DNA from: Rhynchobatus australiae
Lineage: Eukaryota
NCBI GenBank assembly: GCA_034780895.1
Contig: JAUZTB010000127.1
Location: forward strand, 41,312,503-41,376,502
Reading direction: 5' to 3'
Length of the DNA stretch: 64,000 nucleotides
Shown piece after piece: positions 28,801 through 37,800 of this stretch. The position numbers were made by a program. The stretch's first letter is position 1, and each line of letters starts with the position of its first letter.

Positions 28801-31800
28801 GTATGCAGACACAAGGATCTCTCTGAAAACCAACATTCAATAATTTCACACTATGCTCTGTTTTTCTATTCTCCTCTATCCTTTCACACCTTCCTGAAAG
28901 ATACAACTTTCAATTTTGATATCACCCTTGTGGTTTTGTTTTATANNNNNNNNNNNNNNNNNNNNNNNNNNNNNNNNNNNNNNNNNNNNNNNNNNNNNNN
29001 NNNNNNNNNNNNNNNNNNNNNNNNNNNNNNNNNNNNNNNNNNNNNTACGTTCTTTAATGCCTCTCTATCTTATATGCATGCACCTTAGCACTTGGATGGG
29101 TACATGGGTAGGAAAAGTTTGGAGGGATATGGGCCAAACATGGTCATATGGGACTAGCTTAGAAGGGAATCTTGGTCAGCATGGACCAGTTGGGCTGAAG
29201 GACCTGTTTCCATGCTGCATTAATCTATGACTCCTAGGATCTGCTAATGCTGCACTCTTATTATAGAAAAATACATTTTGATTGTACAAAAAATCTGATC
29301 AGACTGCCATGCTAGTTTCACTTCACAGCACATCACCCTTTGCCATTTCTACTATATGCAATGCAATCCCACCACTAGCCACATTTTCTTCACCCCACCA
29401 TCTTCTGCAGGGATCACACCCTCTGTAACTCCCTGGTCCACTCATCCCTACTCACCAACCCCTCCTTGACCCCTGGCACTTTTCCTCTGCGACACTGGTC
29501 CCTACACCTCCTCCCTCACCACTATCCTGAGACCTAAACACCGTTTCAGGTCAGGCAAAGATTCATCTACGATTCCTCCAACCTAGTCTACTGCATTCAG
29601 TGCTCCCGATGTAGCCTCCTCTGCATCGGCGAGTCCAAGCGCAGACTCACAGTTTTGCAGAACATCCACGCTCTGTCACAGTGGCTATCCCAAGCTCCCA
29701 GTTGCATGCCATTTCAATTCTTCTTCCCATTCCCACACCAACCCGTCCATCCTCTGCCTTCTCCAATGCCAGGGTGAGGCCCAATGTAAATAAAGCCCTC
29801 CCCTAACTGGCCAGACCTGTCCGTCATCCTTCACCTCTCCTCAGTCCACCAATCACCTTGGGTGTGTGTCTCACCACTCCGATCTCCTCTTATACTGGTC
29901 ATCTCCCTTCGCTACTCTTAGTCCTGATGCAGGGTTTCGACCTGAAACATCAACAACTCCATTCCCCTCCCAGATGATGTTCAACCCGCTGACTTCATCT
30001 GTTTAAAACTCTATCAACATTCAAGTCATGGAAGGGGAGCTAAATGTAAATGAAACAATTATTCTCTGTTCAACTGACTTCCATCCATTGATCCAATAAT
30101 GGATCAGCTGCAATCCTGCCAAAGAATTGCGTTCNNNNNNNNNNGTAATAGCAGAACACATCTAAACTATCCAAATAAATCTAGCAATCTTGCTGCTAAC
30201 TTTATTGAACCCCTCAATGTTCGTTCTAAGCAGATGATCATGAACTCAGTGGAACTGGACCTAATCACACAGTCCACATGGTATTCACATCCACACGACC
30301 CTCATTGATCCTTTCAGCCCTATTTGAAAATCTTTTCAATAGTAAAGATCAGGAAACAGAAGTAAAGCCACTATGATATTGATCCTTCCCATCAAAGCAC
30401 AATAAATTCCATTAATTCATTAAATCTTGTGCTGGCCCTTGAAACTGAACAGGTGGTTAAGGCTGAATTTACTCCACTAATGCAAAAAAAAATCCAGATC
30501 AGTGTGGTTAAAAAAAGCTCTTTAACAGGGCAACGTAATTAGCAGAGTTCTAAAATAGACTGGATTAAAATGGTTGGGGAGCTCATTAAATGTTTCTCAA
30601 TGGATATGCTCCCTCTGACTGAGATACATTAATTATCCAGCTACAAATTTACAAACTTAACATTAGAATGTTGAAAAAAAATTACACTGAAAAGCCTTTT
30701 ACCAGCTTGACTTGACAGGGAAAAGGATGTATCACTGGTTGTGCATGGGACTTATGTTGACATCATTCTTGTCATTTCAATTGCAATATTTGTTCAGGTA
30801 AGCAAGAGACAAGAAAGTAAAAGAGTGATGAATTTGAGAGTATTTAGTGGAGTACTACATTGGAGTGCCATTGTTGTATTCATGATGTGGTGAAATCCAG
30901 GTCTTGTCATTCATTCCANNNNNNNNNNNNNNNNNNNNNNNNNNNNNNNNNNNNNNNNNNNNNNNNNNNNNNNNNNNNNNNNNNNNNNNNNNNNNNNNNN
31001 NNNNNNNNNNNNNNNNNNATTTAGTACTGAAACAAAAAAGGACATAGTTTGGATCTGCAGATTTAGCTGATATCCAGAAAGGCATTAGGATCCCCTACAG
31101 GCTAAGAAAAGTAAGTCAGCTACTTTTGGTTATTTCCCAATGTCTCTTCACCACATCTCTCCCAGTCCCTTCTTTCCCCTTCCCCAATGGAAAGTGTGTA
31201 TGTAGAATGAGGGGGAAAAACTGGGCTTGACTGTTATACCTAACACAATTGTGGTCACAATGGTGGACACCCACTGCCACCTTCACAACCTCTCATGTGC
31301 CACATCTTNNNNNNNNNNGGTGGGGTGGGGGCAGGAGAAAAGTGTCCAATAAAAGAAAAAATATTTTAAAAATTTCATTTTGAAATTGTGGATTTTTTTT
31401 TTGTATATGTTTACAAAGCTTCCCCATTTCCAACACTTCTACTCTTTTCTCATCAGCTCCTTACATGGATTGCGGACCCACCAAGCACAGTTGCAATGAT
31501 GACAATCGCCCCTGATTTCCATGGAACACGCCATGAAGCTCTACTTACAGGCCTCAGGAAGTTCACAAAATACTACACATCTGTATTGTGTTTTACAACA
31601 CCAGGCGATGGTCCCAAGAGTCCACCCAAGATGATTCAGACCCATGAAGATAGTGAGTACTTGAGGACTGTCGCTTGGATCTGTAGTCATTTTGCTCTGT
31701 AACTTCATTCACAGGGATGCTTGAAAAGGATCTGTAGCTCTGTCAGAGCCAATTTGAACTACAGGGTGATGAGGAAGATGGCCATGCAGTAAGTTGAAAG

Positions 31801-34800: not shown

Positions 34801-37800
34801 ATTCCACTATTTTGTGGTAAGCATGGTGAATCTCAGCTGGAAACTAGTCTGTGACAAAGAGAAATAAAAACATTGCTTCAAATGCAACCTGTTCTGGCAA
34901 TGCTGCACTCTCCCCACTCCTTGCGCTCTTACCTTGAACATCAGACAGTCATCCTGGTGNNNNNNNNNNNNNNNNNNNNNNNNNNNNNNNNNNNNNNNNN
35001 NNNNNNNNNNNNNNNNNNNNNNNNNNNNNNNNNNNNNNNNNNNNNNNNNNNNNNNNNNNNTCTGGAATACCTCCTTCAATCTTTGGTTCTTCAACTCTGC
35101 GCTGCTCACTTGCTTGCGCATCTCCGAAGACAAAAATTGGGAAATATTATTTGATCATTGCTAAATGGTAGACATAAATCAATTTTGTGATTTAATGAAA
35201 GCTCCAGTGGCAATCAAATCTACAACATTTCAAAATTATAAATCTGCCATCTAATTGGATGGGCACTGATAGATTTTATGGAATAAAATGGATGCAAAGC
35301 TTTAACCTTATGAGCGGTTCAGACAACATATGAAACAAAGAACATAGACTCATTAACCAACTCAGTGTTGTCAATAAAAGGTTATTGTTACAGTTCAACA
35401 ATAGGTTATTAATCACATTGCAGGGCTTGAAGGCATAAAACATCCCCCAATCAGTCACAATTTTAATTTGGTTGCAGTTTCTATGGGGCCCAACATCCCT
35501 CTAAAGAATAAATTTCTTCCATTTCAGCACTGTCCCTTCAAACAAATGTCACAGATGTTTCCACTCAAATAGTAAAAACTGGAATCATATTTTAATTACA
35601 GCCAAAGATGGTGATGAGCCCAAACCACTGTAGAATTCCTTTATTGTTGGGTAACTTTGCATATATGCCAAGAAATGTGTGTTCCATGAACACAACTAGA
35701 GCTATAACAAGAAAGTGGTTCCTGGATATTAGAAACATCACAAGTTAATTTTCATGAATTAATCATTGGACCCATAAATAAATGATGATCATTAATAAAC
35801 CCAAGAGGAAGTTAAAGAGGAACTCCTTTATCCAGAGTGGTTAGAAAATGGCCCTGATGCAGGTTCTTGATTTGAGACATCGACTACATCTCTGTCTCCA
35901 CAGATGTTGCTTGACCTGCTGAGTTCCTCCAGCAGTTTGTTTTTTGGCTGGAATATGAAACTTGGTACCACAAGGCATTGTTGAAGCAAGCAGTATTGGT
36001 ACACCTCAGATCAACACATAAGTAGGAGAAAGGAATAGAAGTATATGCTGACAGTGAACAATGGGAAAGATAGAAGGCAGCTTATGTGGTACATAAAACC
36101 AAGGAGGACCACTTGGGTGGAATAGCCTGATGGACACATATTATGTAATTTTATGCAGTAAAGTGACAGATGCAATCTGTTTTAAGACTAATCTCAACAT
36201 GATGTTTCCAAGACCTTGATTATTGTGCTGTTATTGATAGCCTGATAAAATATAAGAAACAGGAGCAGAGGTAGGCCAAATTACACTGGATTACTCCCAG
36301 TGCCACGTGCTAGCAAGGTCAGAAATAGAAAAATAAGCCAGATAAATTTGTGGCTGAGGGGCTGGTACAGGGGGCAGGGATTCAGGTTCTTGGACCATTG
36401 GGATCTCTTCTGGGGTAGAGGTGACCTGGTCAAGAGGGACTTGAACGAGAGAGGGACCAATATCCTTGCAGGGAAATTTGCAAGTGCTTCACAGGAGGGT
36501 TCAAACCAGATTGGCAGGGGGATGAGATTCTGAGCTGGAGCAAGTCATGGAATAAGGCTACAGCCAGTGAGAGCAAGCTTAGCAATCAGGATAGCCAGGG
36601 CATAGTAAAAGGAGGGAAAGGAATACCCAGTTAATCTGCATTTATTCAATGCACGAGGTTTAACATGTAAGGCAAATGAACTCAGAGCATGGATTGGCTC
36701 TTGAGGACTGGGATTTTATAGCCATAACAGAGACTTGGCTGAGAGAAGGGCAGGACTGGCAGCTCAGCTTTCCAGGATACAGATGCTACAGGCGCGACAG
36801 AGGTACAGGTAAATGAGGAGGGAGTGTTGTCTTTTCGATAAGGGAGGATGTAACNNNNNNNNNNNNNNNNNNNNNNNNNNNNNNNNNNNNNNNNNNNNNN
36901 NNNNNNNNNNNNNNNNNNNNNNNNNNNNNNNNNNNNNNNNNNNNNNNNNNNNNNNNNNNNNNNNNNNNNNNNNNNNNNNNNNNNNNNNNNNNNNNNNNNN
37001 NNNNNNNNNNNNNNNNNNNNNNNNNNNNNNNNNNNNNNNNNNNNNNNNNNNNNNNNNNNNNNNNNNNNNNNNNNNNNNNNNNNNNNNNNNNNNNNNNNNN
37101 NNNNNNNNNNNNNNNNNNNNNNNNNNNNNNNNNNNNNNNNNNNNNNNNNNNNNNNNNNNNNNNNNNNNNNNNNNNNNNNNNNNNNNNNNNNNNNNNNNNN
37201 NNNNNNNNNNNNNNNNNNNNNNNNNNNNNNNNNNNNNNNNNNNNNNNNNNNNNNNNNNNNNNNNNNNNNNNNNNNNNNNNNNNNNNNNNNNNNNNNNNNN
37301 NNNNNNNNNNNNNNNNNNNNNNNNNNNNNNNNNNNNNNNNNNNNNNNNNNNNNNNNNNNNNNNNNNNNNNNNNNNNNNNNNNNNNNNNNNNNNNNNNNNN
37401 NNNNNNNNNNNNNNNNNNNNNNNNNNNNNNNNNNNNNNNNNNNNNNNNNNNNNNNNNNNNNNNNNNNNNNNNNNNNNNNNNNNNNNNNNNNNNNNNNNNN
37501 NNNNNNNNNNNNNNNNNNNNNNNNNNNNNNNNNNNNNNNNNNNNNNNNNNNNNNNNNNNNNNNNNNNNNNNNNNNNNNNNNNNNNNNNNNNNNNNNNNNN
37601 NNNNNNNNNNNNNNNNNNNNNNNNNNNNNNNNNNNNNNNNNNNNNNNNNNNNNNNNNNNNNNNNNNNNNNNNNNNNNNNNNACAAGGCATAAATATCAAA
37701 AGGTCACTAATAAAATAACGGAATTCTTACAAGAACCTAAAATACTGATAACAACTATGAGAGTACAGCTTATGAGATAAGATTTCGAAAAATTCAAGGG

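What the first reader, a model, noticed from the sequence alone, without database searches (positions are those of the whole stretch)
31457..35123. SDK1 internal exon lies 3.3 kb from, and antisense within the last intron of, MAD1L1
Seen: an intact SDK1 FN3 exon (+) and the MAD1L1 penultimate exon (-) converge, with no N-gap between 31319 and 34959. I recognised no neighbouring exon of either gene in the 64 kb, though gaps could hide some. Known: both are large multi-exon genes; in human both map to 7p22 but do not overlap. Inference: true interleaving after a rearrangement, a duplicated or transduced orphan exon, or a misjoin. The RTE remnant at 32040-33600 and the gaps at 30919-31018 and 31309-31318 are candidate breakpoints.
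[Added by the scan's program, not by the reader: the finding's places include an assembly gap (unread letters, written N; its length is only estimated) at 34960 to 35060. Whether the letters on both sides are continuous or in frame is not known: test that first.]
Basis: partly seen in the sequence, partly recalled or inferred. Interest (0 to 1): 0.7.

Follow-up and report, generated by a model that had tools for sequence, protein, structure and literature searches.

The report
Sidekick-like exon inside MAD1L1 intron
Two genuine coding exons from two different very large vertebrate genes lie 3.3 kb apart on opposite strands of one gap-free stretch of a draft assembly; this is a stray exon copy, an assembly error or a rare gene overlap, and the window alone cannot say which.

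Summary
At 31457-31652 (+) there is a 196-nt open exon with canonical splice sites that encodes the C-terminal two-thirds of a fibronectin type III (FN3) domain (PDB best hit PTPRD FN3, E 5e-10). At 34933-35121 (-) there is a 189-nt exon of the spindle-checkpoint gene MAD1L1 (PDB MAD1 C-terminal domain, E 1.5e-9). The two are 3,280 nt apart and converge, and there is no N between 31319 and 34959.

The 101-N run inside the MAD1 exon is in frame. It is also exactly the length the orthologue requires: 34 codons in an ungapped alignment.

The label "SDK1" could not be tested. No sidekick chain is among the 51 PDB hits, and the large protein databases were closed. It rests on my recall and on human 7p22 synteny.

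Among 751 other open frames scanned, none was a further MAD or FN3 exon. The "RTE remnant" is not confirmed as RTE; the interval holds only old dispersed-repeat fragments.

The cause stays open: stray duplicated exon (my lean), chimeric contig, or true antisense interleaving.

The parts
31457..31652 (+). FN3-domain exon (sidekick-like). It has 65 codons plus 1 base, entering in phase 0 and leaving in phase 1. It carries the strand-B Trp, the Tyr-x-x-Val-x-Cys core and the GDGPKS FG loop.
   Evidence: Sequence and translation. PDB phmmer: E 5.1e-10 to PTPRD FN3, with 16 of 40 residues identical in the best stretch. Pfam fn3 is weak: E 0.023, 15.3 bits, below the cut-off of 25. Atlas: 25 of 30 nearest clusters are fn3.
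31437..31456 (+). Pyrimidine-rich tract and AG acceptor of the FN3 exon
   Evidence: Read directly (cttctactcttttctcatcag).
31653..31658 (+). GTGAGT donor of the FN3 exon
   Evidence: Read directly.
31653..34932 (.). The 3,280-nt N-free spacer between the two exons. It is intron-like, with old dispersed-repeat fragments at 32495-32813, 33085-33281 and 33321-33460.
   Evidence: No N in the spacer. No Pfam family in six frames at E<=1. No blastn copy in the window. tblastx matches to 55799-56126, 50974-51171 and 15887-16025, E 2.7e-8 to 2e-3. GC 0.34-0.43 with no step.
34933..35121 (-). MAD1L1 exon of 63 codons, phase 0 to 0, encoding the start of the MAD1 C-terminal domain. Probably the penultimate coding exon.
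   Evidence: PDB 7b1f_B and 4dzo_A at E 1.5e-9; query 1-63 aligns to chain 8-70 of 122 without gaps. Pfam MAD positions 549-569 of 661. Acceptor AG at 35123-35122 and donor GT at 34932-34931.
34960..35060 (.). N-run of 101 inside the MAD1 exon. Together with base 35061 it makes exactly 34 codons.
   Evidence: It was not filled.
31309..31318 (.). 10-N run 138 nt upstream of the FN3 exon; the left end of the N-free stretch
30919..31018 (.). 100-N run, one of six runs of exactly 100 in the window

Best explanation
Both exons are real, and they are truly joined on one gap-free stretch of sequence. The juxtaposition is therefore not a scaffold misjoin at an N-run. The minus-strand exon is the MAD1L1 exon that encodes the start of the MAD1 C-terminal domain. 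Its donor must splice leftwards to a terminal exon that is not in the readable 34.9 kb, so the plus-strand FN3 exon lies, antisense, in what should be MAD1L1's terminal intron. I take the FN3 exon to be sidekick-type, probably SDK1. Its second half (TSVLCFTTPGDGP) matches my recollection of the third FN3 domain of sidekick, and the single trailing base A fits my recollection of the residue that follows in SDK1. Both points are recall, not tests. The mechanism I think most likely is that one of the two exons is a stray copy: a local segmental duplication carried an exon plus flanking intron of one neighbouring giant gene into an intron of the other, and the copy is still young enough to be intact. 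Shown: exon identities at family level, splice sites, strand, spacing, frame continuity across the N-run, and the absence of other detectable exons. Inferred: the SDK1 label, 'terminal intron', and the duplication.
For: The FN3 exon and the last 27 nt plus donor of the MAD1 exon share one N-free stretch, 31319-34959. The MAD1 halves on either side of the N-run are in frame and spaced exactly as in the orthologue, so order and orientation are right at that point. The spacer shows no young repeat, tandem repeat or composition step that would mark a chimeric joint. Each exon stands alone. MAD matched only the control among 122, 145, 112 and 98 frames. fn3 matched only the control among 136 and 144 frames. 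That is what a lone transplanted exon, or an exon of a gene with very long introns, would look like. In human, MAD1L1 (7p22.3) and SDK1 (7p22.2) are neighbours (passages of PMC10297997; table of PMC3472787). That favours a local cause over a random chimera. From general knowledge, an inversion with one breakpoint in each gene's intron would break both genes, so functional interleaving needs a more contrived history than a local duplication.
Against: Neither exon shows any decay: both frames are open and all four splice sites are canonical. A stray copy would have to be young. No second copy of either exon is in the window (next best hit E 0.081, inspected and not FN3). Copy number in the genome could not be examined. 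No target-site duplication or flanking repeat marks an inserted segment. The SDK1 label, and with it the synteny argument, is untested: 0 of 51 PDB hits is a sidekick chain.
Confidence: 0.33

Rival explanations
1. Chimeric contig. The assembler fused two unrelated places of the genome somewhere inside 31653-34932, so the two exons are not neighbours in the animal.
For: The assembly is very fragmented, with 23 N-runs in 64 kb and a mean readable piece of about 2.6 kb. The spacer contains transposon-derived pieces. Both exons being fully intact is what a chimera of two true loci predicts.
Against: The repeat pieces in the spacer are ancient, sharing 38-73% amino-acid identity with other copies, and there is no DNA-level copy in the window. 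Such pieces do not collapse assemblies. There is no tandem repeat, low-complexity joint or GC step. A random chimera would rarely pair two genes that are neighbours on human 7p22, if the SDK1 label is right. The window cannot see near-identical repeats that lie elsewhere in the genome.
Confidence: 0.28
2. True antisense interleaving. In this lineage a sidekick gene on the + strand and MAD1L1 on the - strand really overlap, and both exons are used by their genes.
For: Both exons are intact with canonical splice sites. They share one N-free stretch. Each exon is isolated by at least 29-35 kb of exon-free sequence on its own strand, as expected for giant genes. The two genes belong to one conserved neighbourhood in human.
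Against: From recall, the exon belongs to an early FN3 domain of sidekick. Dozens of further SDK1 exons would then have to run through the body of MAD1L1. In human the two genes are separate, about 1 Mb apart, and (from recall) head-to-head rather than convergent. A simple inversion cannot produce interleaving without breaking both genes. No second exon of either gene is in the window to show an alternating order.
Confidence: 0.17
3. The FN3 exon is not SDK1. It belongs to another multi-exon FN3 gene (another IgSF adhesion molecule or receptor phosphatase, or an unannotated gene) that lies antisense in the MAD1L1 intron.
For: The only tool-based identifications are generic. The best PDB hits are LAR-type phosphatases, contactins and Dscam, and no sidekick chain is among the 51 hits. 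Atlas names only 'fibronectin type III domain-containing protein'. Pfam fn3 is below its cut-off.
Against: The match to PTPRD is 16 of 40 identical residues, a paralogue level, so the exon is not an orthologue of any FN3 protein solved in the PDB. A compact nested gene should show more exons within 31 kb on each side, and none was seen. My recollection of sidekick's third FN3 domain matches the exon's distinctive second half, but that is recall only. ELFN1, the FN3-bearing convergent neighbour of MAD1L1 in human (recalled), has a single coding exon (recalled). Here the open frame is only 110 codons and is bounded by splice sites.
Confidence: 0.15

Closest known systems
MAD1L1 (mitotic arrest deficient 1-like 1), the exon encoding the start of the MAD1 C-terminal domain (human chains 4DZO, 7B1F)
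   Same: 23 of 29 readable residues are identical. The alignment over 63 positions is ungapped and ends 52 residues before the human C-terminus. It matches Pfam MAD positions 549-569 of 661.
   Different: 34 of the 63 codons are unread (N). No other MAD1L1 exon is within 34.9 kb downstream or 28.9 kb upstream. Pfam scores of 21.7 and 25.5 bits are under the family cut-off of 30, because so few residues can be read.
Sidekick-1 (SDK1), an internal FN3 exon
   Same: It is an FN3 half-domain exon that ends just before the next domain. It is of the IgSF adhesion / receptor-phosphatase FN3 type. Human SDK1 lies in the same band group as MAD1L1. The distinctive second half matches my recollection of sidekick (recall only).
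   Different: This was not verified by any search. In human the two genes do not overlap. No neighbouring Ig or FN3 exon was found on the + strand.
FN3 domains of LAR-family receptor tyrosine phosphatases (PTPRD, PTPRF)
   Same: They are the best matches among solved structures (E 5.1e-10 and 6.7e-9), and they share the domain-end motif T-x-E-D.
   Different: Only 16 of 40 residues are identical in the best stretch. That is a paralogue, not an orthologue.
Antisense overlapping or nested genes, and exon-bearing segmental-duplication fragments, in vertebrate introns
   Same: An exon of one gene sits on the opposite strand inside an intron of another.
   Different: The usual cases involve small nested genes or 3'-end overlaps. 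Here a mid-gene exon of one giant conserved gene would sit in the terminal intron of another.

Membership tests
MAD1 / Pfam MAD (PF05557) | Sequence match to the MAD1 C-terminal region | tested here: met
   PDB MAD1 chains match at E 1.5e-9, with 23 of 29 readable residues identical. Pfam MAD gives E 8e-5 and 5.6e-6, but its bit scores of 21.7 and 25.5 are below the curated cut-off of 30.
MAD1 / Pfam MAD (PF05557) | Exon continuous and in frame across the N-run | tested here: met
   1 base plus 101 N makes 34 codons, and the alignment of query 1-63 to chain 8-70 is ungapped.
MAD1 / Pfam MAD (PF05557) | Other MAD1L1 exons in order on the same strand | tested here: inconclusive
   MAD matched only the control among 122, 145, 112 and 98 frames. 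Introns longer than the window would give the same result.
Sidekick (SDK1) | FN3 domain sequence | tested here: met
   PDB FN3 hits from E 5.1e-10. 25 of 30 Atlas clusters are fn3. Pfam fn3 is only E 0.023, under its cut-off.
Sidekick (SDK1) | Closer to SDK1 orthologues than to SDK2 or any other FN3 protein | not testable with these tools
   The large protein databases are closed. 0 of 51 PDB hits is a sidekick chain. The resemblance to sidekick's third FN3 domain is recalled only.
Sidekick (SDK1) | Neighbouring Ig or FN3 exons on the same strand | tested here: inconclusive
   fn3 matched only the control among 136 and 144 + strand frames of 45 aa or more. Power is low, since the control itself reaches only E 0.023. 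phmmer with the exon against 1,552 frames found nothing.
LAR-type receptor phosphatase (PTPRD/F/S) orthologue | Orthologue-level identity to the solved FN3 domains | tested here: not met
   16 of 40 residues identical in the best stretch.
ELFN1 | Single long coding exon containing LRR, FN3 and transmembrane parts (recalled) | tested here: not met
   The open frame is 110 codons (31370-31702), and the FN3 part is bounded by AG and GTGAGT.
RTE retrotransposon remnant (32040-33600) | Reverse transcriptase or endonuclease domain | tested here: not met
   0 Pfam families in the six frames of 31653-34932 at E<=1.
RTE retrotransposon remnant (32040-33600) | Dispersed copies | tested here: met
   tblastx finds collinear matches of 32495-33460 to three other places in the window, E 2.7e-8 to 2e-3. 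The class of the repeat is unknown.

The most novel reading that the evidence does not exclude
In this vertebrate lineage a rearrangement inside the conserved 7p22-like gene block has left SDK1 and MAD1L1 truly interleaved on opposite strands. A mid-gene SDK1 exon sits in MAD1L1's terminal intron, and both genes still work. The two giant genes would then have to be transcribed through each other over a long distance.
Probability: 0.15. Interest if true: 0.55.

Novelty: new member of a known kind. Interest (0 to 1): 0.27.

Why it matters
If the join is real and both exons are in use, two very large, conserved, late-replicating genes would be transcribed head-on through each other. In human both are listed at the fragile site FRA7B (table in PMC3472787). 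That would be a natural test case for transcriptional interference and for how gene order in the 7p22-like block changed. If it is a stray copy or a chimera, the practical point is a warning for annotation. Gene predictors could fuse or truncate MAD1L1 and SDK1 models here, and synteny maps built on this scaffold would show a false breakpoint.

Tried and rejected
1. Long-frame scans with stops read as X have little power. Six frames of about 4,800 aa against Pfam gave 0 families, although weak RVT_1 matches appear when short frames are scanned. A 5,000-aa frame against the PDB dropped the FN3 control from 42.8 to 16.7 bits and found no other FN3 in 15 kb upstream in that one frame. The other two frames were not run.

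2. Short motifs recalled from the MAD1 C-terminus, and generic FN3/Ig patterns, found no further exon. Two hits of one motif at 52796 and 57487 lie in sequence I take by eye for retroelement remnants.

3. A ranking of minus-strand frames by coiled-coil composition gave nothing MAD-like.

4. phmmer of the FN3 exon against 1,552 frames gave 24255-24464 as the next hit at E 0.081. On inspection it is not FN3.

5. In one search one further + strand frame, among 143 in 31500-64000, matched Pur_ac_phosph_N (an FN3-like fold) somewhere between E 0.013 and 0.1. I did not find which frame it was. With 21 families matching at E<=0.1 among 144 frames, this is at the level of chance.

6. Rfam gave 0 matches. 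TRF gave 0 rows for 29-38 kb. The repeat finder gave only 14-25-nt matches, with no target-site duplication or long inverted repeat around either exon.

7. Pfam on four stretches I took for reverse-transcriptase remnants gave 0 families in 10 frames at E<=0.01.

8. A search for SDK1 + MAD1L1 + synteny found 0 papers.

No supplementary file was consulted. No structure or complex was predicted.
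Full report
WHAT THE WINDOW IS. The 64-kb window has 39.7% G+C and a CpG observed/expected ratio of 0.18. It is broken by 23 N-runs totalling 3,280 N, six of them exactly 100 long. It reads like a draft assembly of a vertebrate with heavy CpG depletion. 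I do not take it for human: the readable MAD1 residues differ from the human chain at 6 of 29 positions. I did not try to find out which organism or record it comes from.

THE PLUS-STRAND EXON. From 31457 to 31652 there is an open stretch of 65 codons plus one base. It is preceded by a pyrimidine-rich tract and AG (31455-31456), and followed by GTGAGT (31653-31658). The surrounding stop-to-stop frame is only 110 codons, 31370-31702. Against all solved structures the 65 residues hit FN3 domains: PTPRD at E 5.1e-10, PTPRF at 6.7e-9, then contactins 2-6, Dscam, NrCAM and neogenin. Of the 51 distinct sequences at E<=10, none is called sidekick, and about a third of the list (bacterial potassium-channel chains at E 0.04-1.2) is noise. 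The best stretch, against PTPRD, has 16 of 40 identical residues, which is a paralogue level. Pfam fn3 reaches only E 0.023 (15.3 bits, cut-off 25), because the exon holds only the C-terminal two-thirds of a domain. In the ESM Atlas, 25 of the 30 nearest clusters are fn3 clusters, with a top score of 0.95. So it is a real FN3 exon of the IgSF-adhesion / receptor-phosphatase type. It ends just before the next domain, and one base (A) is carried over into the next codon.

IS IT SDK1? No open tool holds vertebrate sidekick FN3 sequences, so I could not test this. From memory, the distinctive second half of the exon matches the third FN3 domain of sidekick, and the trailing A fits the residue I recall following it in SDK1. 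That is a lead, not a test. Independent support comes from synteny. Human MAD1L1 lies in 7p22.3 with FTSJ2, NUDT1 and SNX8, and SDK1 lies in 7p22.2 with CARD11 and GNA12 (passages of PMC10297997). Both are listed under FRA7B at 7p22 (table of PMC3472787). I put SDK1 at about 0.75.

THE MINUS-STRAND EXON AND THE N-RUN. On the minus strand an exon runs from 35121 to 34933. Its acceptor AG is at 35123-35122, and its donor AAG|GTAAGA has GT at 34932-34931. The first 20 codons (35121-35062) and the last 9 (34959-34933) can be read. Base 35061 plus the 101 N makes 102 nt, which is 34 codons. Searched as one exon by reference, with N read as X, it matches only the human MAD1 C-terminal domain (7b1f_B, 4dzo_A; E 1.5e-9). 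Query residues 1-63 align without any gap to chain residues 8-70 of 122, and 17 of 20 and 6 of 9 readable residues are identical. The two sides of the run are therefore in frame, in the right order and orientation, and spaced exactly as in the orthologue. A gap sized from read pairs would rarely be exact to the base, so this run looks like a deliberate mask or a precisely sized gap. I did not fill it. Pfam places the readable start at MAD positions 549-569 of 661 (E 8e-5; 5.6e-6 for the 31-aa flank). Since 52 residues of the human protein remain after the exon, 'penultimate coding exon' is plausible, but the human exon map is recalled, not checked.

GEOMETRY. The exons converge (+ then -) and are separated by 3,280 nt (31653-34932). 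No N lies between 31319 and 34959. The FN3 exon and the 3' end of the MAD1 exon, with its donor, are therefore on one uninterrupted stretch.

SEARCH FOR FURTHER EXONS. I extracted 1,552 stop-to-stop frames of at least 25 aa (frames that were 30% or more X were dropped). I scanned subsets against Pfam, each with a positive control as first member.

- Minus strand, 1-34932, 45 aa or more: 121 frames. MAD matched in the control only.
- Minus strand, 35122-64000, 40 aa or more: 144 frames. Control only.
- Minus strand, same region, 30-39 aa: 111 frames. Control only.
- Plus strand, 45 aa or more: 135 and 143 frames. fn3 matched in the control only.
- 98 open frames of 20 aa or more that abut an N-run: only the known MAD flank matched.

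The three minus-strand frames of the spacer itself gave no MAD match at E<=1. So the MAD1L1 terminal exon is not in the readable 34.9 kb downstream. That makes 'inside the terminal intron' the natural reading, if the gene is whole. Power is good for MAD, where 21 residues already give E 8e-5. It is poor for FN3 half-domains, where the control reaches only E 0.023. Minus-strand frames under 45 aa downstream of the MAD1 exon, minus-strand frames under 30 aa upstream of it, plus-strand frames under 45 aa, and whatever the N-runs hide, were not covered.

THE SPACER. The spacer shows no Pfam family in six frames at E<=1. It has no DNA-level copy elsewhere in the window: the only 6 non-self blastn matches of 30145-36854 come from a short element at 35854-35949. 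There is no tandem repeat, no Rfam family and no G+C step, with values of 0.34-0.43. Only 14-25-nt direct or inverted matches are present. tblastx does show that 32495-32813, 33085-33281 and 33321-33460 are related to 55799-56126, 50974-51171 and 15887-16025. These are 14 segments, E 2.7e-8 to 2e-3, with 38-73% amino-acid identity. It is too diverged to mislead an assembler.

WHAT IT MOST LIKELY IS. Four readings remain.

(a) A stray copy. A local duplication carried one exon with flanking intron from one of two neighbouring giant genes into an intron of the other.
(b) A chimeric contig, with the false joint somewhere in the spacer.
(c) True antisense interleaving of two working genes.
(d) An FN3 exon of some other gene.

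Against (b): there is no visible joint, and a random chimera would seldom pair two genes that are neighbours in human. Against (c): an inversion with one breakpoint in each gene's intron breaks both genes; the exon seems (by recall) to belong to an early FN3 domain, so most of SDK1 would have to run through MAD1L1; and in human the two genes are (by recall) head-to-head and about 1 Mb apart, not convergent. Against (a): both exons are perfectly intact, and no second copy could be looked for. Against (d): a compact nested gene should show more exons, and my recollection points to sidekick. I lean to (a) at 0.33, then (b) 0.28, (c) 0.17 and (d) 0.15. The window alone cannot decide. The decisive data are read support across 31319-35121, copy number in a full assembly, and splice junctions.

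LIMITS. No supplementary files were read. The papers cited were seen only as search listings and found passages.

VERDICT. The striking interpretation, two giant genes interleaved, is the least likely of the three readings that accept the SDK1 label. This is an ordinary-looking draft-assembly oddity worth one cheap follow-up. Interest 0.27.

Noticed in passing
window 34960-35060: The 101-N run is exact to the base for an uninterrupted exon (34 codons with base 35061). It covers the middle of the MAD1 exon, so it looks like a deliberate mask or a precisely sized gap rather than a gap estimated from read pairs.
   Followed up: yes
window 6216-6315, 12165-12264, 13177-13276, 26380-26479, 28946-29045, 30919-31018: Six N-runs are exactly 100 long, the usual convention for gaps of unknown size. 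The other 17 range from 3 to 827. This suggests two different scaffolding or masking steps.
   Followed up: no
window 35854-35949, with copies at 16706-16790, 18338-18377, 21838-21876, 47840-47883, 47921-47944 and 48266-48312: A short dispersed element of 24-87 nt at 75-96% identity, on both strands. It is the only DNA-level repeat that 30145-36854 shares with the rest of the window, and may be a SINE or LINE-tail core.
   Followed up: partly
window 52817-53155 (+), 53339-54161 (-), 57375-58135 (-), 39600-40900 (-): Frameshifted stretches that I read by eye as LINE reverse-transcriptase remnants; two of them abut N-runs (53156-53338, 57107-57374). Pfam gave 0 families for the 10 frames at E<=0.01. 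Short-frame scans gave only weak RVT_1 matches at E 0.021 and 0.011. The class is undetermined.
   Followed up: partly
window 29250-30000: A C-rich patch with G+C 0.49-0.52 and GC skew down to -0.47, against about 0.40 for the window. Its open frames are rich in Pro, Ser and Thr. It is probably a repeat and was not examined.
   Followed up: no
window 4755-4905 (-): A short dinucleotide-type simple repeat that translates as alternating Arg-Glu. It topped the coiled-coil composition ranking as an artefact.
   Followed up: no
window 31500-64000 (+), frame not located: One further + strand frame of 143 matched Pfam Pur_ac_phosph_N (an FN3-like fold) at E between 0.013 and 0.1. Pattern searches did not find an FN3-like frame, and the match is at chance level for the number of frames scanned.
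   Followed up: partly
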